DNA from: a phage
Length of the DNA stretch: 64,000 nucleotides
Reading direction: 5' to 3' (one strand)
Assembly (NCBI GenBank): GCA_033648345.1
Contig: GCA_033648345.1_4121.1
Below, in pieces: positions 1 through 22,102 of this stretch. Below the pieces are notes generated by a model, which worked only from the letters and a program-made list of their open reading frames with translations, was not told the DNA's origin and did no database searches. How positions within the stretch are numbered: position 1 is the stretch's first letter; the number at the start of each line of letters is the position of its first letter. Both the position numbers and the translations under genes were made by a program.

Positions 1-405
1 TCCGTCTTTCATTAATATAAATGCTGTATAACCACATAACATTTTTTTAATTTGGGTAACATCTATACCAGTGAAATACACAGCCCAGTCAGTATATCCT
101 TGTTGGAAAGTATTAGAATTCGTGAATGCATATGTTGAACCTGAACCATATATTTTATCACCTTTAATAACAACGGAAAACGATCCTAACCATAAGTCAT
201 CAACTTCAGTTGTGATTTGTTGAACTGCTCCTAACGATACAAACTGTGTACTTAAACCCGCATTATAGTTTGAATCTTCACCGTGTGCATATACAGTGCC
301 ATCTTGCATTAGAAACATTTCAAGAGTGTAACTAACAACACTTTTCTTTATATTATTAACTTCGATTATATTCCCATAATCAAACATTCTAACAAAAGGT
401 AACAT
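1..405 (-). CDS. RCC1-repeat (beta-propeller-like) protein, paralog 1, C-terminus outside window
   Basis: Open frame to window edge; N-terminus MLPFVRMFDYGN shared with the two downstream paralogs; AAGGAGG SD 5 nt upstream. Confidence 0.6.
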   Translation of the reverse strand, partial: MLPFVRMFDYGNIIEVNNIKKSVVSYTLEMFLMQDGTVYAHGEDSNYNAGLSTQFVSLGAVQQITTEVDDLWLGSFSVVIKGDKIYGSGSTYAFTNSNTFQQGYTDWAVYFTGIDVTQIKKMLCGYTAFILMKDG

Positions 406-477
406 AATTCCCTCCTTTATTCATTATACTTTATTTAATACAAATAAGAATTCCTGTATCGAGTACTGGCATTCAAT

Positions 478-1626: not shown

Positions 1627-1654
1627 ATTCCCTCCCTTATTCATTATACTATAT

Positions 1655-1690
1655 TTAATACAAATAAGAAAGCCAGTACAGAGTACTGGC
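1655..1690 (-). terminator. Rho-independent terminator (minus strand)
   Basis: Perfect hairpin GCCAGTAC-nnn-GTACTGGC at 1672-1690 followed on the minus strand by UUUCUUAUUUG, just downstream of the 1698..2864 stop. Confidence 0.5.
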
Positions 1691-1697
1691 CTATCAA

Positions 1698-2864
1698 TTA
1701 CGAAAAACGTGGATCATCAAGAACAAACACTGTACTACTTGGACCACCTTGTGTGGTGACAGCACTAGTACTGTAAAGAAAGTTACCATCCGTCATATAA
1801 GTTCTACGATTCGTACAAATAACTCTTACTTTATTCATATCGATATCAGGATTAGGTAATGGACATGAAGTATACACTGATACATCAGTACTTGTTCCTA
1901 TCCCCAGCGTACCTTCATTTGTGGTTGAACCGCTATTCAACCCACTAGCATATATACCACTGCTTGTAATAACAAAAGTGGCGTAGAATGGAGAACCTTC
2001 ACCTATATTTAATTTAGTTCCAGGTGGTTGTCTTGCCGCAGCAACCGCACCATATGCTTTCCCACCAGATGTGGCAAGATTACCAAGAGCACCATACTGT
2101 TGTTGTCCACCATTATACACTGTGTTAGTGCCATCACTGTTAGTGTGGATACCAATAGAATTATAGTTACTGTTGCTATATACTAACGCGGTATTCGAAG
2201 TAACTGTATTTCGTGTATATACTTTATATTGTTGGGTAAAATTACCACTAGTGGACGTACCCTGTACAGTTCCAGTGTAGTATATATATCCGTCTGTACC
2301 AATGAATGAGTGCATAACACTACCTGCAAAAATTTTTTCGGGAGTAACACCTGACGGTATTGTTGATTGTACAAATCTACCCACTACATTTGTTGTTGTA
2401 TTATTTCCCAATTGACCGGAGTCACCATAACCACTTGACCATATGGTATTGTTCTCAAGAAGAACACTAATTGATAATCTTGATAAAGCTATTTCTTTAA
2501 CATCACTTTCTAATGTATCAAAAAATGAAGTACAATTTGTCCAAGTGTTCACTACGCTAGAACTAACACCAATTTGTTTATTATCACCAGAACTATAATA
2601 ATTCCCATCATATGTTTGTATAAGTATAACAGAACTACCAACCCATACTTTATCAACTGAACCAAACGTTCTTGTCCATGTGGTAACTATATCCCCGCTA
2701 TTATTACCCAATCCAAAGCAACCACTACTATCTACACCTCGTACATATAAATCTCCTGAAGTCATCAGAACTGCACAGAATGATTGTGCACCTTTAACAT
2801 CTTTAATTGGCTCTGGTTCAGGTGCAACATTCCCATAATCAAACATTCTAACAAAAGGTAACAT
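1698..2864 (-). CDS. RCC1-repeat protein, paralog 3
   Basis: Track ORF 1698..2882 trimmed to Met after SD; SGYGDSGQLGNN and GGQQQYGALGN RCC1-like blades. Confidence 0.65.
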   Translation of the reverse strand: MLPFVRMFDYGNVAPEPEPIKDVKGAQSFCAVLMTSGDLYVRGVDSSGCFGLGNNSGDIVTTWTRTFGSVDKVWVGSSVILIQTYDGNYYSSGDNKQIGVSSSVVNTWTNCTSFFDTLESDVKEIALSRLSISVLLENNTIWSSGYGDSGQLGNNTTTNVVGRFVQSTIPSGVTPEKIFAGSVMHSFIGTDGYIYYTGTVQGTSTSGNFTQQYKVYTRNTVTSNTALVYSNSNYNSIGIHTNSDGTNTVYNGGQQQYGALGNLATSGGKAYGAVAAARQPPGTKLNIGEGSPFYATFVITSSGIYASGLNSGSTTNEGTLGIGTSTDVSVYTSCPLPNPDIDMNKVRVICTNRRTYMTDGNFLYSTSAVTTQGGPSSTVFVLDDPRFS

Positions 2865-2912
2865 ATTTCCTCCTTTATTCATTATATCATATTTACCCCA
2901 TAAACAAAACCC

Positions 2913-2941
2913 TTGACAACCTTCCAGTACTGATGTACTAT
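2913..2941 (+). promoter_or_regulatory. sigma70-type promoter driving the FamA array
   Basis: TTGACA-17-TACTAT in the divergent intergenic region. Confidence 0.5.
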
Positions 2942-2966
2942 AGAAGGAATATAAGGAGAACTACAC

Positions 2967-3194
2967 ATGACAAATACTCTTAAGTACTACCTCAATACTC
3001 TAAATGAACTAGAGTACGCGAAGTTTCTCGCGGATAGTTCGTGGCTAATTGAGCTAAAAACACATAACAGTACTGGATGTAACCTTATGCTGAACAATGC
3101 ACTTGATACCCTTGTAGTGAGTATTTTACACAGCACCATCTGCGGGGATAGCAATAAACAATTATCAAAAATCTTAGTACTGGTAGCTCTATGA
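2967..3194 (+). CDS. FamA-like small protein (divergent first member)
   Basis: 75 aa ORF with SD AAGGAG; LKYYLNTL N-terminus. Confidence 0.5.
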   Translation: MTNTLKYYLNTLNELEYAKFLADSSWLIELKTHNSTGCNLMLNNALDTLVVSILHSTICGDSNKQLSKILVLVAL

Positions 3195-3403
3195 ACACTA
3201 TGAACATTGAACAGTACTACATTGATGCACTACCAACAAAAGGTCTACGAGAAAGCCTACTGTATACACAAAATAATTATATAAACCTCAAACATTGTCC
3301 TAAACTCTTGAACTCGTACAGGAATAATAAAATAAGAAATGCTGTACAAGGGGTAGAAAGTATGCAATACTATTACATCCTAACCCTTTTAATCGAGCAC
3401 TAA
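3191..3403 (+). CDS. FamA small paralog
   Basis: ATGA overlap with upstream gene; EQYYID N-term motif. Confidence 0.6.
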   Translation: MNTMNIEQYYIDALPTKGLRESLLYTQNNYINLKHCPKLLNSYRNNKIRNAVQGVESMQYYYILTLLIEH

Positions 3404-3404
3404 T

Positions 3405-3590
3405 ATGTATAAAGAATTCTACTGTAGTAAGCTGCACAAACAATACAGAGATTCATTTCCCAATGAACCTATGGATATGAATAGTCCCTTTTATAAATTT
3501 GACTTCAGACTGGAGACACGTTATGCAATAGAACATCAATTTCCTGAAACTAAGTACTTATCTATCATGAACCTCATCTTTAAGTTCTAA
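3405..3590 (+). CDS. FamA small paralog
   Basis: MYKEFY N-term, LIFKF C-term; TAATATG junction. Confidence 0.6.
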   Translation: MYKEFYCSKLHKQYRDSFPNEPMDMNSPFYKFDFRLETRYAIEHQFPETKYLSIMNLIFKF

Positions 3591-3601
3591 AAGAGTACTA
3601 T

Positions 3602-3814
3602 ATGAAAACTATGAACATACACCAGTACTACTTAGATATTCTCCCTAAAGATGTACAGTTCATCCTTAAACAAGAATACAGTACTTTAAAAAACCTTAAA
3701 AGAACCGCACCGAATGTATTAATCCTGCACCAAGAAAATGTAGTTGATAATATTCTACAAGGTGTACCAGGGACCGAGTACTTTAACATAATAAGGCTAA
3801 TTACATTACCATGA
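3602..3814 (+). CDS. FamA small paralog
   Basis: Near-duplicate architecture of 3191..3403 (MxTMNIxQYY...LQGV). Confidence 0.6.
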   Translation: MKTMNIHQYYLDILPKDVQFILKQEYSTLKNLKRTAPNVLILHQENVVDNILQGVPGTEYFNIIRLITLP

Positions 3815-3996
3815 ATCATATATTATACTATTACCAAAATCTATCCGACAGGGACAAGTACACCCACAACTCCAATGTATGGTACTACAAACGCGGTAGT
3901 ATAAGAGACAAACAACATTACTTCTGTATTGCTATAAAAGAAGCACTAACAACTAAGTACACGTACAGAGCAGTACTGAAACTTATTGATATGTAA
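3811..3996 (+). CDS. FamA small paralog
   Basis: ATGA overlap; C-term VLKLIDM. Confidence 0.55.
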   Translation: MNHILYYYQNLSDRDKYTHNSNVWYYKRGSIRDKQHYFCIAIKEALTTKYTYRAVLKLIDM

Positions 3997-4006
3997 AGAG
4001 AATACT

Positions 4007-4192
4007 ATGAATACATTTGAGTACTATACAAATAAACTATCTATGCCAGAAAGATCTCATCTCTATGTGTGGAGAAATGCGTATAAAAGCGGCAATAAAC
4101 TTATACAAAGAAATTCCCTTACAGTGTGTACAAATTTAATTAAAGCAGAGTACCGCACATATATTGAAGTACTCAAACTGATAGCAATATAA
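4007..4192 (+). CDS. FamA small paralog
   Basis: Start moved to MNTFEYY after upstream stop; C-term VLKLIAI. Confidence 0.55.
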   Translation: MNTFEYYTNKLSMPERSHLYVWRNAYKSGNKLIQRNSLTVCTNLIKAEYRTYIEVLKLIAI

Positions 4193-4200
4193 GGTACTCT

Positions 4201-4380
4201 ATGCAAGAATTCTATATCTATAACCTCCAGCACAAAGATAGATACAACTATAATAAATTCCAAAGGTACTACACAGTCGGAAACAAAAGAGATAAAAAAC
4301 GATACTTTCTATCATGTACAGTAGAAGCACAAAACGAAAAGTACAGGTACAGAGAAGTACTTAAACTAATCTCTATGTAA
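4201..4380 (+). CDS. FamA small paralog (59 aa, absent from ORF track)
   Basis: MQEFYIYNL...VLKLISM by manual translation. Confidence 0.5.
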   Translation: MQEFYIYNLQHKDRYNYNKFQRYYTVGNKRDKKRYFLSCTVEAQNEKYRYREVLKLISM

Positions 4381-4388
4381 GGAATAAT

Positions 4389-4568
4389 ATGCAAGAATAC
4401 TATATAGAACACATAAACATTAAAGACCGTTTCATGTACGACACCTTCGTGAAGTACTACAACCTGGCAACTAACAGTACTAAAAATATTAATCTCAATA
4501 GCTGCATTCATCACGCACTAACAAAAGATAATCCCTTCAGGGAAATCCTCGCACTCGCATCTGTATAA
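4389..4568 (+). CDS. FamA small paralog (59 aa, absent from ORF track)
   Basis: MQEYYIEHI... by manual translation. Confidence 0.5.
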   Translation: MQEYYIEHINIKDRFMYDTFVKYYNLATNSTKNINLNSCIHHALTKDNPFREILALASV

Positions 4569-4578
4569 AGGAAACCAA

Positions 4579-5238
4579 ATGAAACTTAATGCACACAGCA
4601 AACAATACCTTAAGCACTTTAAGTACCTCAACAGTATTCAAGCAGAATCTTTTACACCAGCATATACGTATCACCCAAATGTACTAAAGAAACGAAATAA
4701 AAAGAAAAAATCCAGAAATGTTCTCGTATCTAAGAACCTCAAATCGTACTTGAAGAAAAATAATATAGCTCTTGCTTTTATTAATATCTATCATACTGAT
4801 TTAAAAGTATTGAGTACTAATACCAGCACAAAAGCACTAAAGAATGCATCTATCTATATACACATGGATAATATCCCGTGCACTATAATTCTATCTTTCG
4901 GGAATGTATACTTCTTCGGGAATTGTAATAGCACCCATGATATCAGTACTGCACAATTCCAAATCGGAGATATGTACTGCATGGGTTCAGAAAAAATACA
5001 CGATAACATGCACTTCTTCCAAAAGCAACGTACTAACGAAACTGATACAGTACTGCAATTCCTCAAAGAACTACAAAACAAAGAATTAACACCAGAAGAA
5101 GAATTCATGTACAGTACTGTAATCGATAATCCAGAACTCTATAAAAACGCGTACAAACTAACAAAACATGTACAGGAACTTATCAGTACTGATAAGAAAT
5201 TTCATAACCTCATTACGTATATTACAAACTATGTATAA
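4579..5238 (+). CDS. 219-aa protein with FamC-like motif inside the FamA array
   Basis: Contains LTPEEEFMYSTVID, resembling the FamC EE-x-F-FQ-x-S-T-V motif. Confidence 0.55.
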   Translation: MKLNAHSKQYLKHFKYLNSIQAESFTPAYTYHPNVLKKRNKKKKSRNVLVSKNLKSYLKKNNIALAFINIYHTDLKVLSTNTSTKALKNASIYIHMDNIPCTIILSFGNVYFFGNCNSTHDISTAQFQIGDMYCMGSEKIHDNMHFFQKQRTNETDTVLQFLKELQNKELTPEEEFMYSTVIDNPELYKNAYKLTKHVQELISTDKKFHNLITYITNYV

Positions 5239-5413
5239 AGAATACTACAAAGATAAAATCCCAATGCATCTACAACACCATATACCAAACGTTGCATTGG
5301 GTATCAAAGATCACGCAAAGATAATGTTCCAACAATGTACTAAGTACACGCTCATATACGATGATAATCCATATATGCTGTACTACGTAGTAATGCTAAC
5401 ATTCAGGTACTAA
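5231..5413 (+). CDS. FamA small paralog
   Basis: Start moved to MYKEYY; C-term MLTFRY. Confidence 0.6.
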   Translation: MYKEYYKDKIPMHLQHHIPNVALGIKDHAKIMFQQCTKYTLIYDDNPYMLYYVVMLTFRY

Positions 5414-5415
5414 TA

Positions 5416-5613
5416 ATGAATATAAAAGAATACTACGTAAGTAAACTTGCAATTAATTACCAAATGCTTATTCCCCGCAATCCTGTAGATTTCAAAGATA
5501 AGAGCAAAACAATATACTACCGCCAGCATATAATGCATACAATAGAAGAAGATGATTATGATGATGATATGTATAACCTGTACAAAGTACTAACACTTAT
5601 ATTCAGGTACTAA
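5416..5613 (+). CDS. FamA small paralog
   Basis: MNIKEYY...LTLIFRY. Confidence 0.65.
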   Translation: MNIKEYYVSKLAINYQMLIPRNPVDFKDKSKTIYYRQHIMHTIEEDDYDDDMYNLYKVLTLIFRY

Positions 5614-5614
5614 T

Positions 5615-5800
5615 ATGTATAAAGAATACTACATAGAGAAACTCCCAATGTATCTCCAACACCTTGTACCAACAGAACCATTGGGTATAGAAAAAGACTA
5701 CGAAAAAGACTACTTCGTTAAGTGCACTAAATCCTCAATAGATATTGAGGACTATAATCGAGTACTGTATCACATCCTTTTACTAATATATAAGTACTAA
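5615..5800 (+). CDS. FamA small paralog
   Basis: MYKEYY...LLLIYKY. Confidence 0.65.
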   Translation: MYKEYYIEKLPMYLQHLVPTEPLGIEKDYEKDYFVKCTKSSIDIEDYNRVLYHILLLIYKY

Positions 5801-5801
5801 T

Positions 5802-5990
5802 ATGAATAACCACAAAGAATACTACACACAATTTCTCCCCAGCATTTTTGAACACTACGCCAGATATAAAGTCCCCCTGGATAACGATTTGGCAGTACTG
5901 GGATTCAATAACTGCATAGAACGAAGTATAGAAAATAGTAGTACTTATGACCAATTATATAACATCATACTACTCATATACAGGTACTAA
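5802..5990 (+). CDS. FamA small paralog
   Basis: MNNHKEYY...FNNCIERS...ILLIYRY. Confidence 0.65.
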   Translation: MNNHKEYYTQFLPSIFEHYARYKVPLDNDLAVLGFNNCIERSIENSSTYDQLYNIILLIYRY

Positions 5991-5991
5991 T

Positions 5992-6180
5992 ATGCATAAA
6001 GAATACTACACAAAATATTTCCCAATGTACCTCAGTACTAATCTATTAGATAAACCTCGCGGTATCAATGCTCAAAACGATAAAGTGTACTTTACTATGT
6101 GCACTAAAGCATGTATACTAGATTTTGATAGCTATCATCGAGTACTGTATCATACCCTGTACCTAGCTTTCGTGTACTAA
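5992..6180 (+). CDS. FamA small paralog
   Basis: Start moved to MHKEYY; C-term YLAFVY. Confidence 0.6.
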   Translation: MHKEYYTKYFPMYLSTNLLDKPRGINAQNDKVYFTMCTKACILDFDSYHRVLYHTLYLAFVY

Positions 6181-6190
6181 AGAGGCCAAT

Positions 6191-6397
6191 ATGAACGAAC
6201 AGAAAGAATTCTACACCAAATACCTCAGTGCATCAGAACAAATGTTTCTAAGGAGTGTATCACCTTTACGTTTAGATACACCACACGCCAGAGATTGTTT
6301 TAATAATTGTATACGTATTACTCTAGAAGCTTTAGAAAACAATAACAAAAATATTCAGTACTCAGGCGTAATGGGACTAATATTCTTCTATGAATAA
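6191..6397 (+). CDS. FamA small paralog
   Basis: MNEQKEFY...FNNCIRIT...LIFFYE. Confidence 0.65.
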   Translation: MNEQKEFYTKYLSASEQMFLRSVSPLRLDTPHARDCFNNCIRITLEALENNNKNIQYSGVMGLIFFYE

Positions 6398-6578
6398 CAA
6401 AGAATTCTACATAAACCATCTGGAACTAAACTCCCAAATGCTTATACCACTAAACCCAATAGATATCAAGGATAAGAAAAATACCAAACAATTCCACTAC
6501 CACACACTATGTGCTATCAACCCTGATTATAATACATATAAACTGTACTACATTCTCGCCCTAATATATAGGTACTGA
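6390..6578 (+). CDS. FamA small paralog
   Basis: MNNKEFY...LALIYRY. Confidence 0.65.
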   Translation: MNNKEFYINHLELNSQMLIPLNPIDIKDKKNTKQFHYHTLCAINPDYNTYKLYYILALIYRY

Positions 6579-6579
6579 T

Positions 6580-6765
6580 ATGCATAGAGAATACTATATA
6601 CAATTTGTTAAAGGGAACTACAAACACGCCGTCCCCGTAAACCCCTTAAATTCTAATGACCCAAGTACTATATTCTTGTTCCATGACGCAATACGTACAG
6701 TACTCAATACTAAAGATGAACAGGTGCAGTACGTATTCTTACTATTACTTATATACAGACACTAA
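6580..6765 (+). CDS. FamA small paralog
   Basis: MHREYY...LLLIYRH. Confidence 0.65.
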   Translation: MHREYYIQFVKGNYKHAVPVNPLNSNDPSTIFLFHDAIRTVLNTKDEQVQYVFLLLLIYRH

Positions 6766-6782
6766 AGCACTAAGGTACTAAC

Positions 6783-6986
6783 ATGTATAAAGACTTCTAC
6801 ATAAATCATCTTAGTCCCGCAAAACAATCATTCTATAAAGCAAAACCAATGAAAATGAAATTACAAAATAATTTCACAAAAATATGCTATAATAACTGTA
6901 TACGTAGTACTATACAAGCACTGCAAGAAAATGACAACAATAAACTATACTCCAACATAATGGCACTCCTATATATCTATGAATAA
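6783..6986 (+). CDS. FamA small paralog
   Basis: MYKDFY...YNNCIRST...LLYIYE. Confidence 0.65.
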   Translation: MYKDFYINHLSPAKQSFYKAKPMKMKLQNNFTKICYNNCIRSTIQALQENDNNKLYSNIMALLYIYE

Positions 6987-7188
6987 TGAACATAAAGAAT
7001 TCTACTCCAAACACCTCAGCCCCTCAGAACAAATGTTTCTAAGGACTACAGCACCTTTAAATACTGATACATATTTCGGCAGATTATGCTACAATAATTG
7101 TATTCAAATGACTTTAAACGCAAACGACAATAATAACAGTACTAACATGTACTCAGGCATCATAGGTATACTATTCCTATATGAATAA
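6979..7188 (+). CDS. FamA small paralog
   Basis: MNNEHKEFY...YNNCIQMT...LFLYE. Confidence 0.65.
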   Translation: MNNEHKEFYSKHLSPSEQMFLRTTAPLNTDTYFGRLCYNNCIQMTLNANDNNNSTNMYSGIIGILFLYE

Positions 7189-7369
7189 TTACAAAGACTT
7201 CTATTTGAATACACTACCTACTGTACTTTCTCTAAGTGCTCAATGTAAAATCCCGCTGGATAATCCTTACGCCAGATATAACTATTCCATAACTGTTAAT
7301 CGATGTATAGAGAATCATTGCAGTACTAACCAGTACTATAACATAATCCTACTTATATTCAGGTACTAA
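7181..7369 (+). CDS. FamA small paralog
   Basis: MNNYKDFY...ILLIFRY. Confidence 0.65.
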   Translation: MNNYKDFYLNTLPTVLSLSAQCKIPLDNPYARYNYSITVNRCIENHCSTNQYYNIILLIFRY

Positions 7370-7370
7370 T

Positions 7371-7550
7371 ATGAACGAACACAAAGACTTCTATATAAGA
7401 AAACTAACATTCGTCCCCGTAAAAATATATAAAGAATGCGACCCAAGATTATACCTATGGCACTTCAATGAGTGCATAAAAGATTCTATATACCCTAAGA
7501 ACTATAAAGAACAATTGTGCTCAGTACTAACACTAGTACTATCATATTAA
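7371..7550 (+). CDS. FamA small paralog (59 aa, absent from ORF track)
   Basis: MNEHKDFYIRKL... by manual translation. Confidence 0.5.
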   Translation: MNEHKDFYIRKLTFVPVKIYKECDPRLYLWHFNECIKDSIYPKNYKEQLCSVLTLVLSY

Positions 7551-7563
7551 TAGAGATAATACT

Positions 7564-7755
7564 ATGCATAAAGACTATAAAGAGTACTATATAAGTAAAC
7601 TCAAAGAGAATGAACAAGCATGGGTTAACAATTTAATCCCCCTGGCAATGACTCAATACGAATTTAATATGTGTACAAAGATTGTTTTAACTAGTAATGA
7701 TATCTCTAATACGTACTACTTCCTATTAAGAGTACTATATGGTACTTTGAAATAA
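7564..7755 (+). CDS. FamA small paralog
   Basis: MHKDYKEYYISKL... Confidence 0.6.
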   Translation: MHKDYKEYYISKLKENEQAWVNNLIPLAMTQYEFNMCTKIVLTSNDISNTYYFLLRVLYGTLK

Positions 7756-7766
7756 TAAGGTATACT

Positions 7767-7973
7767 ATGCAGAACATAAAAAACTATAAAGAGTACTATA
7801 TAAGTAAACTACCACCGACTGACCAAGCATGGATTAGATCTATAATAGTACTGGCATTTAATAGATATGCATTTAACAGATGTACCGAGATTGCTATAGA
7901 CCCTTATAATATTAAAGAGAATGTACAGCATAATCAGTACTACTATATGTTAATGCTTATATATAGGAAGTAA
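7767..7973 (+). CDS. FamA small paralog
   Basis: MQNIKNYKEYYISKL...LMLIYRK. Confidence 0.6.
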   Translation: MQNIKNYKEYYISKLPPTDQAWIRSIIVLAFNRYAFNRCTEIAIDPYNIKENVQHNQYYYMLMLIYRK

Positions 7974-8320
7974 TTCAACATATAGACAGGGGAAGCTCCG
8001 CAGGGAAAGCATTGGACAGGCTTTAACATATGTTATATATGTTAAAATTCAGCCTGCTCGACGTCTGAATTGTTAAAATTCAGCCTGGACAAATGCGATC
8101 ACTAGGATTCTCCCCAGGCTAAACCCCGTAATCATATGTAGTCATAAGTAATCATATATAAACATTTATGTAATCATTTATAATCATTGTAGTGATTAGT
8201 ATTGAGTACTAGAGTGTAATAGAGTGTAATAGAGTACAGGAATGTGCACGTTTAATCAAGAACGTAGCAGTACTGCCCCAAAAGTATTCAGTACTGAAGG
8301 TGTCGATATCCCACTAAGTA

Positions 8321-8346
8321 GGCAGAGGAAGTCTGCCGTACTTTTT
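8321..8346 (+). terminator. Terminator-like hairpin
   Basis: GGCAGA-GGAAG-TCTGCC followed by GTACTTTTT. Confidence 0.4.
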
Positions 8347-8681
8347 AGTTTCCAAGCTCCTTTTCCATTTTGCAAATTACATCAAATGTAATCAAAAGTA
8401 ATCACGCAATGATTAGTACTGAATTATTACTTTCACCTTAATTTCAATTACCCCTTTACCCTTCGGGGTAAAATTCCATTACCCCTTGAGGCTCCAGCAA
8501 AAAGTTGGTTAGTACTCCATCCTAAATCTCGATCCTAAAAATTTTGGAGTACCTATGAAATAAAAGTTGGATCTTCGAAAGTTGAAATTTACGTTGGGAC
8601 GTTTGTGATTTGTGGGATATAATGATGTTTGTAGTCGGGTAGTTCTCAAGAATATCAGTACTGAATGGTGAAAGAAAGTTA

Positions 8682-8709
8682 TTGACATTATGATTCAGTA
8701 CTGTATAAT
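8682..8709 (+). promoter_or_regulatory. Orphan sigma70-type promoter in non-coding region
   Basis: TTGACA-16-TATAAT followed by GTTTTACAT; no long ORF downstream. Confidence 0.45.
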
Positions 8710-9096
8710 GTTTTACATAGAGAGATGAGTTGCCGCAAACAATTCATTCACTCTACTTCCTGTCGTGAGACAGTACAGAAAGATAGTTCCTCCTATGGGT
8801 GGTACATCTTTTAGAACCTCTTTTTTCGTAATATGAACAGTACTGATATTAACAGAATGGTGTCAATACTGATTTTAATCTAAAGCATTATGCCACCAGC
8901 TTGTGCTGGTGGATTCCCTCTAACAGTATTCAGTACTACATGATAGTCTTCATCCTCCTAGGGTAACATAGTGAGGGCTATGATGGCAGTACTGAATACT
9001 CCTTTCACAAGATAGATCTATGGTATAGTACTGACGTATTTTGGGCGTAGTTACCCTGGATGGATTTTGGACGTAGATATGTCTAGCCCTCCAGAA

Positions 9097-9240
9097 GTCT
9101 GGAAGTAAATATGGCTATCCATCTAGACGGCTAAACGGCTAGATTTCTGGATGGCTGGGTGGCTGGGTGGCTGGGTGGCTAGACGTTTGGACGGCTAAAC
9201 GGCTAGATGGTTACACGTCTGGAAGTATAGACGGCTAAAT
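9097..9240. repeat. Iteron cluster with near-symmetric architecture
   Basis: (GGCTGGGT)x3.5 tandem at 9153-9180 flanked by two copies of TAGACGGCTAAACGGCTAGAT and outer GTCTGGAAGTA repeats. Confidence 0.65.
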
Positions 9241-9998
9241 CAAAATTTTATTTTGTTTTTTCCAATAGTTCCCCTACCGCGTGGGGATAGTTTCCCCGCA
9301 GTATCTGGAGTTAGATTTTTCTGAATCTGGAATCATTATCTTATAAACTGGGGGCAATGTCAACAGCCTGGACGGATATTTTTAAAAATTTTTTCAGTAC
9401 TGAATTTTGGGCGTAACTATGCACCCGGTGGGCTTGAGTCTTTCTCGACTTGATGGAACTATTATACAGTACTGGAAAAATAAAGCAATACCCTGGAAGC
9501 AAAAAAGTTTTAATTAATTTGCTTGCTATCCTGGGCCGGACTATGGTACTATATTTCAGTACTGAGAAAGTGCGTTTACCTGCTAGGGTGCGGGAGTGTA
9601 TCCTTTTTTTATATCTTGAATTTTGGGCGTAATTCCGCACCCTCTGGGGTTTCCGCTTTCTCGCGTCTATGTAGTAATTATACGCTTTTTCAGGATCAAG
9701 TCAATACCTAAAAACAAAATAATTGAAAATAATTTAACGCGTTTAAACGGCCAGTAAAGCCCTGGAATGATTGGAATGGTGCAAATGTATAGCTTAGGTG
9801 TATTAATGCGTTAGAATGCGTCTGAGGCCGTTTTATGGGGTATAGGGATGATTTGGTGGATTGATTCAGTACTGAATAATAGTACTACTATATAGAAAGA
9901 TAGTTCCCCTGGATGGTTGCAGTACTGAATGATAGTACTGAATAATAGTTCCCCTATATAGAAAGAAAACTATTTTAAAAAGTATTTGTAGAAAGTAC

Positions 9999-10026
9999 TT
10001 GCAAACTAAGTTTAACGGCGTATAAT
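9999..10026 (+). promoter_or_regulatory. Class-I early promoter
   Basis: AAAGTACTTGCAA-16-TATAAT-GTTTTACATC consensus. Confidence 0.6.
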
Positions 10027-18724: not shown

Positions 18725-19066
18725 ATGACTATTGCAATTGCTCAATCTAACTTTGAAAATGAAATCATCGCCCAGGCACTGCGTTTAAATGATGGTCGGG
18801 CCGAAATTAATTACGGTTTCAATTCAGGCGGTTGTGAAAAATATCAGTACTTTGTAACTGCTGATGGCGGTGTCCTGGGCATCAATACCGTTATTGTAAA
18901 CATTCAGAAAATTAATTTCAATGATCCAGACGATAGCCAGTTTTACATTGTAGGCGTAGACGTGAACTATGAGGATGACTCACTAACTGATGATCACACT
19001 GGCGAGCGGTTAGAAAGTGCATACGGTGAAGATGATTATCAGTCCGGTCCAGAAGATTTCGAATAA
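18725..19066 (+). CDS. Hypothetical acidic protein (113 aa)
   Basis: ORF after promoter, hairpin GGGGAAACGGTTTCCCC and SD AAGGAA. Confidence 0.7.
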   Translation: MTIAIAQSNFENEIIAQALRLNDGRAEINYGFNSGGCEKYQYFVTADGGVLGINTVIVNIQKINFNDPDDSQFYIVGVDVNYEDDSLTDDHTGERLESAYGEDDYQSGPEDFE

Positions 19067-19079
19067 TATAAAAAATAGT

Positions 19080-19107
19080 TTGACAATAGATTATAGTACT
19101 GTATAAT
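19080..19107 (+). promoter_or_regulatory. Class-II early promoter
   Basis: TTGACA-16-TATAAT. Confidence 0.6.
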
Positions 19108-19157
19108 TAATTACATCAAGGGGAGAATAGTTCTCCCCAACTAAGAGGAAAAAGAAA

Positions 19158-19340
19158 ATGGCTGAATTAATCGCTCGGAATACAATTGCAGGCGTTGAAG
19201 ATGTAACATTATCATATGATTCAGATAAACAAGTTTACGTCGTTCGTTATGGTCTGATTGGTGTTAACGTTGATTATATTGATGAAGCCTTTGAAAAATA
19301 CTTTGAATTTATTAATATGGCTTATAATGATTATCGTTAA
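19158..19340 (+). CDS. Hypothetical early protein (60 aa)
   Basis: Promoter, hairpin GGGGAGAATAGTTCTCCCC, SD AAGAGGA. Confidence 0.65.
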   Translation: MAELIARNTIAGVEDVTLSYDSDKQVYVVRYGLIGVNVDYIDEAFEKYFEFINMAYNDYR

Positions 19341-19348
19341 AAAATAGT

Positions 19349-19376
19349 TTGACAATAGATTATAGTACTGTATAAT
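19349..19376 (+). promoter_or_regulatory. Class-II early promoter
   Basis: TTGACA-16-TATAAT. Confidence 0.6.
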
Positions 19377-19430
19377 AGTTTACATCAAGGGGAGAAAAAC
19401 TTCTCCCCACTAACAGAGAGAGAAAACAAA

Positions 19431-19643
19431 ATGGCTAATATCTGCACTGTACTGAAAAATGCAAAACAAGTTTTATTTTCTGATCACGATCATTTAAACA
19501 AGGATATTACGGGCGTTCGGAATATCAAAGATGTAAAAAGTGTTATGGGTATCTATTGCAATATGAAACGTGTCGGCACGTTCGGCGATAAAGTACTATA
19601 CCAGGCAGGGGATTATAACTTCACATTAACCATCATCAATTAA
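19431..19643 (+). CDS. Hypothetical early protein (70 aa)
   Basis: Promoter, hairpin GGGGAGAAAAACTTCTCCCC, SD. Confidence 0.65.
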   Translation: MANICTVLKNAKQVLFSDHDHLNKDITGVRNIKDVKSVMGIYCNMKRVGTFGDKVLYQAGDYNFTLTIIN

Positions 19644-19733
19644 AATATATTACCAGTACTATTGACAACGTTTGATAGTACTGTATAATAAGTTTTATAA
19701 ACAGTAGTTAACTTAACCTAAGAGAGAAACAAA

Positions 19734-19877
19734 ATGATCGCACTGGATTCATTCATCGACGCAGTACTGGCAAAAACTGGCGAGGATCTGACCGCAGAAC
19801 AATACGCGATGATCGAGCAATGTCAGCAAAACGGTAAATCGGTGAAAGATACTGTTAAGATTATCCGCAAGATGTAA
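19734..19877 (+). CDS. Small hypothetical protein (47 aa, absent from ORF track)
   Basis: Manual translation MIALDSFIDAVLAKTGEDL... after class-II promoter near 19663. Confidence 0.5.
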   Translation: MIALDSFIDAVLAKTGEDLTAEQYAMIEQCQQNGKSVKDTVKIIRKM

Positions 19878-19883
19878 TATTAT

Positions 19884-19912
19884 AGCCCACTGGTTAACGC
19901 TGGTGGGCTTTA
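19884..19912 (+). terminator. Terminator-like hairpin
   Basis: AGCCCAC-12 nt-GTGGGCT followed by TTTAATCATTT. Confidence 0.5.
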
Positions 19913-19976
19913 ATCATTTACCCTATACAATGCCAGTACTCAACCGTTTATCTCGTTAGAATGCGTTACAGGACGT

Positions 19977-20180
19977 TTGACAATGATTAGCATGAAATCA
20001 GTACAAAAACAAATAGAAACATTATCAAAAATTAAACGTAAACAATACTCCTTAGAATATACAATCAATGGTAACTATCATCTAATGAAAGAAAATAATT
20101 TTATAGTCATTGATGAATCATTGCAAATTATTAGTATAGTACTGAAAGCATTAATCAATGACAGAAAAAAATTAAAATAA
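19977..20180 (+). CDS. Hypothetical AT-rich ORF (67 aa)
   Basis: Track ORF; weak SD, so low confidence. Confidence 0.35.
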   Translation: MTMISMKSVQKQIETLSKIKRKQYSLEYTINGNYHLMKENNFIVIDESLQIISIVLKALINDRKKLK

Positions 20181-20183
20181 TTG

Positions 20184-20212
20184 TTGACATACAATGCCAG
20201 TACTGGCATAAT
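20184..20212 (+). promoter_or_regulatory. Promoter with conserved leader (candidate small RNA)
   Basis: TTGACA-17-CATAAT followed by ACATCAAGACGAGAACGTCACTAACCCATAGGGTGCACAAATGTAACTAT; no ORF for ~300 bp. Confidence 0.5.
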
Positions 20213-20274
20213 ACTTACATCAAGACGAGAACGTCACTAACCCATAGGGTGCACAAATGTAACTATATAATATC

Positions 20275-20347
20275 GATCAATAAATGATCAAAAAAGTACT
20301 GGATCAATTTAGCATAAGGAGTATAATTCTGATCAATTCTTGATCAA
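20275..20347. repeat. Cluster of five GATCAA sites including palindrome TTGATCAA
   Basis: GATCAA at 20275, 20286, 20302, 20331, 20342 upstream of the TraR-like gene. Confidence 0.7.
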
Positions 20348-20508
20348 AGGCAATATACGCAGTTGAATTTATATAGACAGTACAAAGGCGTTACTATCCG
20401 TGGTAATGCTGGTGGATATGTAGTATCATATGGTTTGAATAAGATTAGCACTAGTAGTATTATTGTAGCATTACAGTACTATAGTATTTTTATAATGAGG
20501 TTAAAATA

Positions 20509-20766
20509 ATGGCTGTTGGATTCGCGAAGGACGGGGCCGAGCAAGACGAGATTAACGCAGTGATTCAGGCCGCTGTAAACCACGCTAGAAAGCAAATTAA
20601 CGCACAAAGAGAATCACTGGTACATTGCCTCGACTGCGGCGATAAAATCCCTGAGAATCGACGCCAGGCCGTTATAGGGTGCATGTATTGTATTACTTGC
20701 CAGGAGGATCATGATAGTACTTTTAAAAGAGATCCGCGTAATTGTTGGCATAGATCTATGAGATAA
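20509..20766 (+). CDS. TraR/DksA-family C4 zinc-finger protein
   Basis: RKQINA...HCLDCGDKIPENRR...CMYCITCQ fits the TraR pattern C-x2-CG-x-IPE-x-RR ... C-x2-CQ. Confidence 0.8.
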   Translation: MAVGFAKDGAEQDEINAVIQAAVNHARKQINAQRESLVHCLDCGDKIPENRRQAVIGCMYCITCQEDHDSTFKRDPRNCWHRSMR

Positions 20767-20773
20767 AAAGTAA

Positions 20774-20801
20774 TTGACAGTACTGAAAGATAGTGTATAA
20801 T
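20774..20801 (+). promoter_or_regulatory. Early promoter with extended -10
   Basis: TTGACA-16-TGTATAAT. Confidence 0.6.
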
Positions 20802-20830
20802 GTTTTATATCTTAACTGAGGATTGAAATC

Positions 20831-21187
20831 ATGGGTATTCAACACATCACGCGTACTACTGACAATGGCGAGATCACTGGTTATCAGGTACAGGGCAAAG
20901 TAGCACAATTGCAGTACTGGTTTGTTAAACGTGGAATCATTGCACCGGATCTTGATTATGACCGTGTAGCGTTTATTGATTCTCTTTATGTTGATCCTGA
21001 TAGTCGGGGCAATGGTGAAGGTAACGAATTAATGAATGCCTTTATTGATGCCGCCGATGATTCAGATTGTATCATCTTAGAATGCGATACGGGAGAAGAT
21101 AACGCCTTTAATCTTAAAGAATGGTACGAAGGCTTCGGATTCGAGGTATTGATAGATAGTGAATATCCTATCATGATTTTATCATAG
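20831..21187 (+). CDS. Putative GNAT-like acetyltransferase (weak)
   Basis: VDPDSRGNGEGNELMNAF resembles the GNAT acetyl-CoA-binding motif; 118 aa. Confidence 0.45.
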   Translation: MGIQHITRTTDNGEITGYQVQGKVAQLQYWFVKRGIIAPDLDYDRVAFIDSLYVDPDSRGNGEGNELMNAFIDAADDSDCIILECDTGEDNAFNLKEWYEGFGFEVLIDSEYPIMILS

Positions 21188-21190
21188 TAC

Positions 21191-21219
21191 TTGCATTTAG
21201 TTTTCAGTACTGTTATAGT
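21191..21219 (+). promoter_or_regulatory. Early promoter
   Basis: TTGCAT-17-TATAGT; hairpin GGGGAAACATCTTCCCC follows. Confidence 0.5.
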
Positions 21220-21266
21220 ACTTGCATCAAGGGGAAACATCTTCCCCTACTAAGAGGAAATAAAAA

Positions 21267-21455
21267 ATGGAAAACTTATCAAGTATTTTAGTACAAGATG
21301 ATTTCGGTAATCCTGGAAGTGCTATCATTGTTCGGGGCAATAAAGCAACGTTTGTTATTGCTGGTGGACCCGTACAGCGTAGCATTAAAAATAATGCTGT
21401 TACCATTAATAATGTACGCTATCGCTTAGATAAAGAATTAATTCATAAACTGTAA
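21267..21455 (+). CDS. Hypothetical early protein (62 aa)
   Basis: ORF with SD AAGAGGAAA. Confidence 0.6.
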   Translation: MENLSSILVQDDFGNPGSAIIVRGNKATFVIAGGPVQRSIKNNAVTINNVRYRLDKELIHKL

Positions 21456-21482
21456 TATTAATTTAATAGAGGATAACAATAA

Positions 21483-21806
21483 ATGTACATTCATACTACT
21501 ATCACAAAGGAAGTCCGTTGCCAGTTCGAAAGTATTCCGGGCGTATGTTTCATCACTGGTACGTTTTCCCCTGGTGATCGTGATAATCCAGTACTGTTAC
21601 AATTACGCCATCCATCATGGGATAAAGCATTTGATCTACCGTTGAATGAATTCGCAACTACTGCTGAAAAGTACATTAAAAATATTCGCGAGAATGATCG
21701 ACTATTCATTAATGCTTTTAGTGATTCCGCGTTAAGCGAGATCCACGGCGTATTGGTTGCAATCATGGAATCAATGCAGAAAACTAAATTCAAACAAGGT
21801 GAATAA
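21483..21806 (+). CDS. Hypothetical protein (107 aa)
   Basis: ORF with SD AGAGGA. Confidence 0.6.
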   Translation: MYIHTTITKEVRCQFESIPGVCFITGTFSPGDRDNPVLLQLRHPSWDKAFDLPLNEFATTAEKYIKNIRENDRLFINAFSDSALSEIHGVLVAIMESMQKTKFKQGE

Positions 21807-21812
21807 AAACTA

Positions 21813-21840
21813 TTGACAATGCAATCCAGTACTGTATAAT
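21813..21840 (+). promoter_or_regulatory. Class-II early promoter
   Basis: TTGACA-16-TATAAT; hairpin GGGGAGAAATGATTCTCCCC follows. Confidence 0.6.
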
Positions 21841-21889
21841 AGTTTACATGAAGGGGAGAAATGATTCTCCCCACTAAGAGGAAAGAAAA

Positions 21890-22102
21890 ATGCAAGGTCA
21901 ACTAATCGTTCGTAAATGGTCTGATACTAACGAAAAACCGTGGGATGTACAATACATCGCCCCAAATGGTGAATCCAGATATCAACCAGGTGTAACGCAT
22001 AGTACTGAGCAATTCGCCGCCGCTCATCGCGAACGTCTGTTACAATCAATGCAGCAAGGTTCCGGTGAAAAATTCATTCAGGATCATTGGCTGAAAGATT
22101 AA
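21890..22102 (+). CDS. Hypothetical early protein (70 aa)
   Basis: ORF with SD AAGAGGAAA. Confidence 0.65.
   Translation: MQGQLIVRKWSDTNEKPWDVQYIAPNGESRYQPGVTHSTEQFAAAHRERLLQSMQQGSGEKFIQDHWLKD

What the first reader, a model, noticed from the sequence alone, without database searches (positions are those of the whole stretch)
20270..20350. Five GATCAA sites, including the palindrome TTGATCAA, upstream of the TraR-like gene
Five GATCAA hexamers lie within ~75 bp in an otherwise AT-rich leader that follows a promoter at 20184 and precedes the TraR/DksA-like gene at 20509. Each contains a GATC, so this could be a Dam/SeqA-sensitive regulatory region, or an operator array for a repressor recognising TGATCAA half-sites.
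Basis: partly seen in the sequence, partly recalled or inferred. Interest (0 to 1): 0.5.

Follow-up and report, generated by a model that had tools for sequence, protein, structure and literature searches.

The report
GATC-site array around accessory phage promoter
Five copies of GATCAA really are packed into 72 bases of this giant E. coli phage, and they wrap around a second, previously unnoticed early promoter inside an optional 329-base gene cassette, so they are probably a small local switch (methylation- or protein-dependent) rather than anything essential to the phage.

Summary
GATCAA lies on the + strand at 20275, 20286, 20302, 20331 and 20342, and the last site is the palindrome TTGATCAA. 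This is the only place in the 64-kb window, and in the whole 348.5-kb genome of the close relative 121Q, with 4 or more GATC in 100 bp. GATCAA is also the only hexamer in 121Q with 5 or more copies in 80 bp.

The window is an Asteriusvirus (121Q/PBECO4-like jumbo coliphage). The array sits about 12 kb inside the roughly 21-kb direct terminal repeat, among early genes.

- A conserved 48-codon gene (20363-20509) lies between the array and the DksA/TraR gene.
- A second sigma-70-type promoter, P2 (TGGATC-16-TATAAT, 20300-20327), sits inside the array. The sites fall at about -59, -48, -32, +1 and +9 relative to it.
- The whole 329-bp unit is absent from some Asteriusviruses, so it cannot be an origin or a packaging site.

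A second allele (PBECO4 group) has four GATC in a different arrangement. Both alleles keep two 11-bp-spaced GATC pairs.

Best reading: a GATC-dependent (Dam/SeqA-type) or protein-operator control of P2. This is unproven. Interest is modest.

The parts
20275..20280 (+). GATCAA site 1 (cGATCAAt). About -59 to -56 relative to the inferred P2 start. Forms an 11-bp pair with site 2.
   Evidence: intact in 8 of 8 group-1 genomes and present as TTGATCAA in the PBECO4 group
20286..20291 (+). GATCAA site 2 (tGATCAAaaaa), about -48 to -45. Followed by an A-run whose length varies from 4 to 7 among relatives.
20302..20307 (+). GATCAA site 3. Its GATC lies inside the -35 hexamer of P2: TGGATC here, TTGATC in the PBECO4 group.
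20331..20336 (+). GATCAA site 4 (tGATCAAt), at about -3 to +1 of P2. Absent from the PBECO4-group allele.
20340..20347 (.). Site 5, the 8-bp palindrome TTGATCAA, at about +9 to +12 of P2. Lies 11 bp from site 4. Absent from the PBECO4-group allele.
20266..20292 (+). First copy of the 27-nt direct repeat TATAATnnnGATCAATnnnTGATCAAA (holds sites 1 and 2).
   Evidence: family D2; 2 matches, 0.02 expected
20322..20348 (+). Second copy of the 27-nt direct repeat (P2 -10 box plus sites 4 and 5), 78% identical to the first copy.
20300..20327 (+). P2, a sigma-70-type promoter-like element: AAAAAAGTAC-TGGATC-16 nt-TATAAT. It is homologous to the recurrent early promoters AAAAAGTAC-TTGCAA-16-TATAAT of the terminal repeat. 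The inferred start is near 20334, 29 nt upstream of the TTG start codon.
   Evidence: the PBECO4 version TTGATC-16-TATAAT scores 10 of 12. The promoter is inferred; no transcript data.
20184..20212 (+).
20219..20255 (+). P1 leader with two small hairpins (GACG..CGTC and CCCAtaGGG). It is one copy of a repeated element of the terminal repeat. A stand-alone copy on the - strand runs from 13582 to 13440 and ends in a terminator.
20363..20509 (+). 48-codon gene (g029 of fEgEco12), TTG start. Its stop overlaps the ATG of the DksA/TraR gene. No known family.
   Evidence: same-length ORF in the divergent PBECO4 allele; dN/dS 0.32; variable sites by codon position 2/4/13; no Pfam hit; homologues only in Asteriusvirus
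20509..20766 (+). DksA/TraR-type C4 zinc-finger gene, 85 aa.
   Evidence: PF01258, E = 3.9e-9; annotated the same way in relatives
20182..20510 (+). Optional 329-bp cassette (P1, leader, GATCAA array with P2, 48-codon gene). It is bounded by the 10-bp direct repeat TTAAAATAAT (20172-20181 and 20501-20510) and is missing from phAPEC6, ph0011 and G17.
   Evidence: (family D3)

Best explanation
The five GATCAA sites are DNA-level control sites for a secondary early promoter, P2 (20300-20327). P2 sits in an optional 329-bp cassette and drives a 48-codon gene and the translationally coupled DksA/TraR-like gene.

The cassette's intergenic part is a diverged copy of a tandem-promoter module that recurs in the terminal repeat. 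In this copy, GATC-containing heptamers have replaced three things: the upstream A/T-rich segment (sites 1 and 2), the -35 hexamer (site 3), and the usual 5' stem-loop (sites 4 and 5, at +1 and +9).

Proposed mechanism (inferred, not shown): the state of the GATC adenines sets P2 activity. These are methylated by host Dam and perhaps by the phage's own PF05869 Dam. Two routes are possible. Methylation could act directly, through the methylated A in the -35 hexamer and at the start site. It could also act through SeqA, which binds hemimethylated GATC pairs about one helical turn apart. Both alleles of the cassette offer exactly two such 11-bp pairs. On this view P2 would behave differently on the infecting, fully methylated genome and on newly replicated, hemimethylated copies. 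That would tie expression of the DksA-like host-takeover gene to the onset of phage replication.

Shown: the sites, their uniqueness, their positions relative to promoter-like elements, the cassette, and the conservation. Inferred: P2 activity, the methylation state, and any SeqA or RNA polymerase effect.
For: - Uniqueness. This is the only locus with 4 or more GATC in 100 bp in 348.5 kb of 121Q, and GATCAA is the only hexamer with 5 or more copies in 80 bp.
- Position. P2 has the same architecture as the recurrent early promoters (AAAAAGTAC, -35 hexamer, 16 nt, TATAAT) and aligns with paralogous modules. Site 3 occupies the -35 hexamer. In PBECO4 P2 is TTGATC-16-TATAAT, 10 of 12. The sites lie at -59, -48, -32, +1 and +9.
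- The invariant core is GATC. Across the nine sites of the two alleles GATC is 9 of 9, while one site is GATCTG rather than GATCAA.
- Both alleles have two GATC pairs spaced 11 bp, although the pairs sit at different places. In vivo, SeqA binding is most favoured by spacings of about 10 or 20 bp (PMC2912659).
- Constraint. In 8 group-1 genomes, 0 of 30 site positions vary against 6 of 58 inter-site positions (p = 0.09). The non-coding 150 nt varies far less than third codon positions of the adjacent gene (9 of 150 against 13 of 49, p = 0.0003).
- Methylation machinery. 121Q gene 417 matches PF05869 Dam, E = 7e-32. The hosts are E. coli and Salmonella, which have Dam and SeqA (established knowledge).
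- Precedent in a phage. The P22 gtr promoter has two GATC pairs, one of them in the -35 region, and methylation directly affects promoter activity (PMC2909390).
Against: - Dam and SeqA need only GATC, yet AA follows 8 of the 9 sites and T precedes 7 of 9. The repeated unit is therefore longer than GATC. That fits a sequence-specific binder, or simple local duplication, at least as well.
- The -35 hexamer of P2 in this window is weak (TGGATC, 3 of 6), and the consensus scan did not list it. There are no transcript data for any Asteriusvirus in the searched literature.
- The spacing between site 2 and site 3 varies from 14 to 17 bp among relatives, so there is no fixed geometry across the whole array.
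- The sites-versus-spacers conservation test is not significant.
- The methylation state of the phage DNA is unknown, and the specificity of the phage Dam homologue is unknown.
- The cassette is dispensable: it is absent from phAPEC6, ph0011 and G17.
Confidence: 0.3

Rival explanations
1. The array is an operator for a sequence-specific DNA-binding protein of the phage or the host. That protein recognises (T)TGATCAA units arranged as direct repeats with an 11-bp period. It represses or activates P2 by occupying the -35 hexamer, the start site and +9. GATC is then only the palindromic core of the motif.
For: - The motif is longer than GATC: AA follows all 5 sites here, against 9 of 141 other GATC in the window.
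- All five sites face the same way.
- 27-nt modules TATAATnnnGATCAATnnnTGATCAAA occur twice.
- The sites overlap core promoter positions.
- The same-face 11-bp period is typical of tandem-binding regulators (established knowledge, e.g. P2 Cox boxes and response-regulator direct repeats).
Against: - There is no second array anywhere in 348.5 kb, so the binder would have a single target.
- No candidate binder was found. The cassette's own 48-aa product has no Pfam match, and a single-sequence model shows one long helix rather than a recognisable DNA-binding fold.
- No match to DnaA, IHF, FNR or CRP consensus sequences. The only OxyR-like matches are half-sites 56 bp apart, with no properly spaced partner.
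- One PBECO4-group site is GATCTG.
Confidence: 0.2
2. The array has no function of its own. It is a by-product of local duplication, slippage or gene conversion in a hyperplastic, recombination-prone early region. An 11-nt unit containing TGATCAA was copied a few times within a decaying promoter module.
For: - The sites look like 11-bp tandem units (GATCAAnnnnT twice) and a duplicated 27-nt block.
- The two alleles differ by gain and loss of sites: in PBECO4, 6 substitutions within 12 nt create TCTGATCAAT, which is nearly identical to the site 4-5 unit of this window.
- The cassette is optional.
- The A-run length drifts.
- The conservation of sites against spacers is not significant (p = 0.09).
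Against: - Nothing comparable has accumulated anywhere else in 348.5 kb. This includes the roughly 60 similar promoter modules of the terminal repeat.
- The non-coding stretch is significantly less variable than neighbouring synonymous sites.
- Sites were gained independently in both alleles, and each allele ended with two 11-bp GATC pairs.
- The repeated unit is a GATC-containing palindrome in a genome that otherwise avoids GATC and TGATCA: observed/expected 0.51 for TGATCA.
Confidence: 0.3
3. The element works as RNA. In transcripts from P1 the palindromic GAUC cores pair (site 1 with 5, site 2 with 4) into a 71-nt hairpin. The hairpin modulates stability or translation of the 48-codon gene and the DksA-like gene, or GAUCAA is a repeated protein-binding motif in the 5' UTR.
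For: - Inverted repeat 20275-20300 / 20320-20345, 77% complementary.
- Predicted hairpin of -15.5 kcal/mol, z = -2.2.
- All sites lie on the transcribed strand downstream of P1.
- The AAAGG ribosome-binding-like sequence directly follows the 3' arm.
Against: - The PBECO4-group allele lacks sites 4 and 5 and folds into a different topology, so there is no conserved structure and no compensatory change.
- The z-scores are modest. Any two TGATCA copies can pair, so the hairpin is an automatic consequence of the repeats.
- No Rfam match.
- Transcripts from P2 would lack the 5' arm.
- The A-run indels alter the stem.
Confidence: 0.1
4. The array is an essential cis-acting site of the genome. It would be either a replication origin (GATC-rich, as in oriC or P1 oriR) or a P1-pac-like packaging site built from TGATCA hexamers.
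For: - P1 pac has seven TGATCA/G hexamers carrying Dam sites (PMC10028697).
- oriC and P1 oriR are GATC-rich (established knowledge).
- The array is unique in the genome and AT-rich.
Against: - The whole cassette is absent from phAPEC6, ph0011 and G17. G17 has no GATCAA array in its first 24 kb.
- The array lies about 12 kb inside a roughly 21-kb terminal repeat, not at a terminus (PMC13070987).
- There are no DnaA boxes within 900 bp.
- The terminase is T4 gp17-like, not PacAB.
Confidence: 0.02

Closest known systems
Dam-dependent promoter control with paired GATC sites: phage P22 gtr, also agn43, opvAB and Mu mom (OxyR plus Dam)
   Same: - Several GATC lie within about 100 bp of a promoter and are arranged as pairs.
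- One GATC falls in the -35 region. In gtr the sites start at -110/-97 and -46/-33, and methylation also affects the promoter directly (PMC2909390).
- The element is carried by a phage that infects a Dam+ enterobacterium.
   Different: - The pairs here are 11 bp apart, not 13.
- There is no credible OxyR tetramer site, only two half-site-like matches 56 bp apart.
- The phage is strictly lytic, so heritable phase variation makes no sense here.
- The sites also cover +1 and +9.
- The flanks are conserved as TGATCAA.
SeqA-bound GATC clusters (oriC, dnaA promoter region, P1 oriR core; SeqA as activator of lambda pR)
   Same: - A dense GATC cluster with neighbours about one helical turn apart, the spacing most favourable for SeqA in vivo (PMC2912659).
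- AT-rich context.
- Located next to or inside promoters.
   Different: - Not an origin: it is dispensable and has no DnaA boxes.
- Only five sites.
- SeqA binding was not tested.
Phage P1 pac site (seven TGATCA/G hexamers, cleavage controlled by Dam methylation)
   Same: The repeated unit is the same hexamer: three of the five sites here, and three of the four in PBECO4, read TGATCA. Each holds a Dam site (PMC10028697).
   Different: - The location is internal to the terminal repeat.
- The cassette is optional.
- The hexamers are not split into 4+3 groups around a cleavage site.
- The terminase is of a different type.
Promoter-early-stem-loop (PeSL) cassettes of T4-type phages
   Same: The surrounding terminal repeat consists of small ORFs, each preceded by a near-consensus sigma-70 promoter followed by a GGGGA..TCCCC stem-loop. 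The array sits in a diverged copy of such a module, and the cassette is an indel between otherwise collinear genomes.
   Different: - In this copy the stem-loop is replaced by GATCAA sites.
- The cassette junctions are a 10-bp repeat, TTAAAATAAT, at gene ends, not PeSL sequences.

Membership tests
Dam/SeqA-responsive GATC cluster | Local excess of GATC over the genomic background | tested here: met
   5 GATC in 72 bp. It is the only cluster of 4 or more per 100 bp in the window and in 348.5 kb of 121Q. Against the GATC-richer terminal repeat alone the excess is moderate.
Dam/SeqA-responsive GATC cluster | At least two GATC on the same helical face, about 10-31 bp apart | tested here: met
   Sites 1-2 and 4-5 are 11 bp apart. 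In the PBECO4 allele two other pairs are 11 bp apart. The spacing preference is from PMC2912659.
Dam/SeqA-responsive GATC cluster | A GATC adenine methyltransferase acts on the DNA | tested here: inconclusive
   121Q gene 417 matches PF05869 Dam (E = 7e-32), but its specificity is unknown. Host Dam is established knowledge. The methylation state of the phage DNA was not found in the literature searched.
Dam/SeqA-responsive GATC cluster | Binding or promoter activity depends on methylation state | not testable with these tools
   Needs reporters in dam and seqA hosts, gel shifts, and methylation sequencing.
OxyR/Dam switch (gtr, agn43, mom) | OxyR site made of two half-sites ATAGnTnnnAnCTAT 22 bp centre to centre, overlapping the GATC sites | tested here: not met
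   The best half-site matches are 8 of 10 (20323) and 7 of 10 (20267). They are 56 bp apart and neither has a partner at the required spacing.
P1-type pac site | Clusters of TGATCA/G hexamers flanking the packaging cleavage point at a genome end | tested here: not met
   The hexamers are present, but the locus is about 12 kb inside the terminal repeat and absent from related viable phages.
Replication origin with GATC repeats (oriC, P1 oriR) | DnaA boxes or iterons next to the GATC cluster; element indispensable | tested here: not met
   No DnaA box, strict or relaxed, in 19900-20800. The cassette is missing in phAPEC6, ph0011 and G17.
Sigma-70 early promoter of the terminal-repeat module family (P2) | AAAAAGTAC, a -35 hexamer, a 16-nt spacer and TATAAT, placed about 30-80 nt upstream of a start codon | tested here: met
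   P2 is AAAAAAGTAC-TGGATC-16-TATAAT, 35 nt before the TTG start. It aligns with modules at 18579, 22577 and 25860. The PBECO4 version scores 10 of 12. Its activity was not tested.
Structured RNA element | Secondary structure conserved with compensatory changes; match to a known family | tested here: not met
   No Rfam hit at E <= 1. The hairpin seen in this allele is replaced by a different fold in the PBECO4 allele. No covariation is available.

The most novel reading that the evidence does not exclude
A lytic jumbo phage may use a private GATC array as a replication sensor. The accessory promoter for its DksA/TraR-like host-takeover gene would be read differently on the incoming, fully methylated genome and on hemimethylated daughter genomes. 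The difference would come through SeqA or through methyl-adenine in the -35 hexamer and at the start site. That would give replication-coupled timing of an early gene without a dedicated phage regulator. The array would have been assembled recently, and twice independently, by converting parts of a standard promoter module into TGATCAA units.
Probability: 0.15. Interest if true: 0.6.

Novelty: new member of a known kind. Interest (0 to 1): 0.3.

Why it matters
If the array is functional, it would be a compact natural example of methylation-state or SeqA-dependent promoter control in a strictly lytic jumbo phage. Early-gene regulation in this group is essentially unstudied. It would also show how a standard promoter module can be rewired by a few local conversions.

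It also bears on when a phage DksA/TraR-type RNA-polymerase modulator is expressed.

If it is not functional, it is still a clean marker of two cassette alleles and of a presence/absence polymorphism in the Asteriusvirus terminal repeat. Either way it is a local accessory feature and not a core element of the phage.

Tried and rejected
- Origin of replication or pac site. Rejected: the cassette is absent from phAPEC6, ph0011 and G17, the position is internal to the terminal repeat, and there are no DnaA boxes.
- Known RNA family or tRNA-like element. No Rfam match in 19000-22000.
- Conserved RNA hairpin. Present in this allele (z = -2.2) but not conserved in the PBECO4 allele.
- Coding repeat. 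The sites fall in different reading frames, and the only ORF across them is 19 codons with no ribosome-binding site (read). The real gene starts at 20363.
- Host transcription-factor sites. No IHF, FNR, CRP or DnaA consensus. OxyR-like matches are half-sites only.
- Scan of IMG/VR for TGATCAANNNNTGATCAA.
- Acquisition from the host. No similarity in 5,426 complete E. coli genomes.
- The 48-aa product as the binder. No Pfam match, homologues only in Asteriusvirus, and the single-sequence AlphaFold model is one helix at pLDDT 71, which gives no support.
- More distant relatives carrying the DksA gene (other jumbo phage genera and T4-like phages). They have other genes directly upstream and no array.
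- Literature on Asteriusvirus promoters, methylation or restriction digests with GATC-sensitive enzymes. Nothing relevant was found.

Full report
**What the window is.** Megablast of 19000-22000 finds 79 phage records. The best are at 92-97% identity and all are jumbo coliphages of the genus Asteriusvirus: fEgEco12, vB_Ec-M-J, 121Q, PBECO4 and others. Position 1 of fEgEco12 aligns to window 8317. The termini of fEgEco12 and its 20,993-bp direct terminal repeat were determined by PhageTerm and restriction digests (PMC13070987). The repeat therefore corresponds to about 8317-29726. The finding lies about 11.96 kb inside this repeat. The region is made of dozens of very small genes, each preceded by a near-consensus sigma-70 promoter.

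**The observation.**
- GATCAA is at 20275, 20286, 20302, 20331 and 20342 on the + strand. The last site is part of TTGATCAA.
- The window holds 146 GATC, and the only span of up to 250 bp with five of them is this one.
- In 300 Markov simulations, 5 or more GATC in 72 bp appeared twice. Six or more GATCAA/TTGATC hits never appeared.
- GATC is at its expected frequency inside the terminal repeat (87 observed, 74-93 expected). It is 2-3-fold depleted outside. Judged on GATC alone against the local background, the cluster is therefore only moderately unusual.
- The decisive point is the shared flank. All five GATC are followed by AA on the same strand, against 9 of 141 elsewhere.
- I fetched the whole 121Q genome. 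Among 620 GATC in 348,532 bp, the homologous locus is the only one with 4 or more GATC per 100 bp. GATCAA is the only non-low-complexity hexamer with 5 or more same-strand copies in any 80 bp.

1. *A gene lies between the array and the DksA/TraR gene.* It is a 48-codon ORF (20363-20509, TTG start) whose stop overlaps the ATG of the zinc-finger gene.
   - It is annotated in several relatives.
   - In the divergent PBECO4 allele it keeps the same length with a GTG start.
   - It has dN/dS of 0.32 between alleles. Among eight close genomes its variable sites fall 2/4/13 by codon position. It is therefore a real gene.
   - It has no Pfam match and no homologues outside Asteriusvirus.

2. *The 329 bp from 20182 to 20510 are an optional cassette.* They hold P1, its leader, the array and the 48-codon gene.
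   - In phAPEC6, ph0011 and G17 the upstream gene abuts the DksA gene directly.
   - The cassette is bounded by the 10-bp direct repeat TTAAAATAAT.
   - G17 has no GATCAA array in its first 24 kb.
   - This alone excludes an essential cis-acting role such as an origin or a packaging site.

3. *The non-coding part of the cassette is a diverged copy of a module that recurs in the terminal repeat.*
   - The module starts with a promoter whose transcript begins with a short leader containing CCCAnnGGGTGC.
   - About 100 nt later comes a second promoter of the form AAAAAGTAC-TTGCAA-16 nt-TATAAT, then gttttacatc, a GGGGA..TCCCC stem-loop, a ribosome-binding site and a start codon.
   - Examples are at 18524/18646, 22527/22656 and 25805/25927.
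   - The alignment places the cassette's AAAAAAGTAC-TGGATC-16 nt-TATAAT (20290-20327) on the second promoter of these modules. I call this element P2.
   - In the PBECO4-group allele P2 reads TTGATC-16-TATAAT and scores 10 of 12 in the consensus scan.
   - Taking the start 7 nt after the -10 box, the GATC of the five sites span -59/-56, -48/-45, -32/-29, -3/+1 and +9/+12.
   - Compared with the paralogous modules, the GATCAA units have replaced the upstream A/T-rich segment, the -35 hexamer and the 5' stem-loop. None of the paralogues has GATC at these places.

**Internal structure of the array.**
- There is a 27-nt direct repeat, TATAATnnnGATCAATnnnTGATCAAA, at 20266 and 20322.
- Because TGATCA is a palindrome, there is also an inverted repeat (20275-20300 / 20320-20345). 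As RNA it could form a 71-nt hairpin of -15.5 kcal/mol with z = -2.2.
- The same sequences read on the - strand give two weak promoter-like matches, TTGATC-16-TATACT and TTGATC-18-TATAGT.

**Comparative evidence.**
- Relatives fall into three groups.
  - Thirteen records carry this allele.
  - About fifteen (PBECO4, slurp01, SP27, E9.1, Salmonella SD phages) carry a second allele.
  - Others lack the cassette and match only a paralogous copy of P1 and its leader elsewhere.
- In the eight first-allele genomes examined, all five GATCAA are intact. The changes lie between them, including an A-run after site 2 that varies from 4 to 7 A.
  - Counted as events, 0 of 30 site positions vary against 6 of 58 spacer positions (p = 0.09).
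  - The whole 150-nt non-coding stretch varies much less than third codon positions of the adjacent gene (9 of 150 against 13 of 49, p = 0.0003).
  - This suggests constraint, with the caveat that mosaic recombination can produce similar patterns.
- The second allele reads TTGATCAAAAAATGATCTGATCAATACTTGATCAATTT. That is four GATC. Sites 4 and 5 are absent, and a new site has been created between sites 2 and 3 by six substitutions within 12 nt.
- Three things follow from the second allele.
  - The hairpin is not conserved: the second allele folds differently.
  - The only element common to all nine sites is GATC, since one site is GATCTG.
  - Each allele ends up with exactly two GATC pairs spaced 11 bp: 1-2 and 4-5 here, and 1-2 and 2b-3 there.

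**Mechanism.**
- *Placement.* The array lies on a promoter, is unique in the genome and is locally conserved. This points to DNA-level control of P2, and so of the 48-codon gene and the translationally coupled DksA/TraR-like gene (PF01258).
- *Dam/SeqA-type reading.* I consider this marginally the most likely, for four reasons.
  - GATC is the invariant core.
  - Eleven-bp pairs match the spacing that most favours SeqA binding in vivo (PMC2912659).
  - The hosts are Dam+ SeqA+ enterobacteria (established knowledge), and 121Q encodes a PF05869 Dam homologue.
  - A unique site needs no dedicated regulator if it uses host GATC-reading proteins.
  - The P22 gtr promoter is a phage-borne precedent with two GATC pairs, one in the -35 region, and a direct effect of methylation on the promoter (PMC2909390).
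- *Sequence-specific operator reading.* It is nearly as good, because the conserved unit is (T)GATCAA rather than GATC and the units are oriented direct repeats.
  - Its weakness is the absence of any other target site, or of any candidate binder.
  - Tests for DnaA, IHF, FNR, CRP and OxyR sites were negative or unconvincing.
- *Neutral origin by local duplication.* It cannot be excluded, and I give it about the same weight as the best functional model.
- *Status.* All of these are inferences. No tool available here measures transcription, methylation or binding.

**Comparison with known systems.** The element works most like Dam-sensitive promoter regions (gtr, agn43, mom; the GATC-containing promoters of dnaA and IS10) and SeqA-bound GATC clusters. 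It shares its hexamer with the P1 pac repeats (PMC10028697). It fails the tests for an OxyR switch, a pac site and an origin. It passes the geometric tests for a SeqA target and for membership of the phage's own early-promoter module family. I found nothing in the searchable literature on this locus or on Asteriusvirus early regulation.

**Verdict.** This is a real, statistically exceptional and conserved short-repeat array. It is best explained as a local regulatory device on an accessory early promoter. It is a new example of a known kind of element, and its mechanism is unproven. A specialist would find it mildly interesting. It becomes more interesting only if replication-coupled, methylation-dependent timing is demonstrated.

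Noticed in passing
whole window; 121Q genome (L155-L161): AGTACT is by far the most over-represented 6-bp palindrome: 286 copies in the window (13 times expectation) and 903 in 121Q (7.7 times). It often occurs as the 8-bp palindrome CAGTACTG (194 copies in 121Q). It sits in promoter spacers (..cagtactgTATAAT), directly upstream of -35 hexamers (AAAAAGTAC-TTGCAA) and between genes. It looks like a genome-wide cis-element of unknown function.
   Followed up: partly
window 1-8316, 8317-29726 and 29727-64000: GATC is at its expected frequency inside the terminal repeat (87 observed, 74-93 expected, 4.1 per kb). It is 2-3-fold depleted on both sides (0.7 and 1.5 per kb). In 121Q the 140-150 kb bin has 49 GATC against about 16 per 10 kb elsewhere.
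   Followed up: partly
121Q genome (L155-L161): Four 6-bp palindromes (CCATGG, CAGCTG, AGGCCT, AGCGCT) are completely absent although about 31 copies of each are expected (CCGCGG and CCCGGG are also absent, 8.4 expected each). This suggests strong restriction-site avoidance.
   Followed up: no
window 13582-13440, minus strand: A stand-alone paralogue of P1 and its leader. It has a TTGACA-17-CATAAT promoter, then a transcript of about 110 nt with two small hairpins (GAC..GTC and CCCAccGGG), ending at a bidirectional terminator (AACGGGGAG..CTCCCCGCGTTGTTATTTTG). It is antisense to the early genes and is a candidate small RNA. The same arrangement occurs in phage G17.
   Followed up: partly
window 9432(-), 9648(-), 11531(+), 11599(-), 13522(-), 18579(+), 20241(+), 22577(+), 25860(+), 28306(+): Ten copies of a conserved leader element, CCCAnnGGGTGC, each about 25-40 nt downstream of a promoter. 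Several are followed about 100 nt later by a second promoter, giving a tandem-promoter module.
   Followed up: partly
window 20172-20181 and 20501-20510: The 10-bp direct repeat TTAAAATAAT bounds the 329-bp cassette. Both the upstream gene and the 48-codon gene end in ..LK-stop. Either gene can therefore be translationally coupled (TAATG) to the DksA-like gene, with or without the cassette.
   Followed up: yes
window 8317-10000: The left end of the terminal repeat is about 1.7 kb without genes and full of short repeats: TGGCTGGG four times near 9150-9180, GACGGCTAAACGGCTAGAT-like units, and many CAGTACTGAAT copies. In 121Q the matching region holds four-copy clusters of TAATCA, GATGGC and AGTACT. 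It may be the terminase recognition or end-processing region.
   Followed up: no
window 8600-29000: Nearly every small early gene is preceded by a near-consensus sigma-70 promoter followed by a GGGGA..TCCCC stem-loop and a ribosome-binding site. This resembles the promoter-early-stem-loop cassettes described for T4-type phages (from my own knowledge).
   Followed up: no
L158:43985-44506 (121Q gene 417, just beyond the window's right end): A 173-aa protein matching PF05869, phage-type DNA N6-adenine methyltransferase (E = 7e-32). 121Q gene 91 is a C5-cytosine methyltransferase. Their target sequences are unknown.
   Followed up: partly
L162 (phage TH47, an UNVERIFIED record): The 48-codon gene carries a premature stop (TAC to TAA at codon 39) in this record only.
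   Followed up: no
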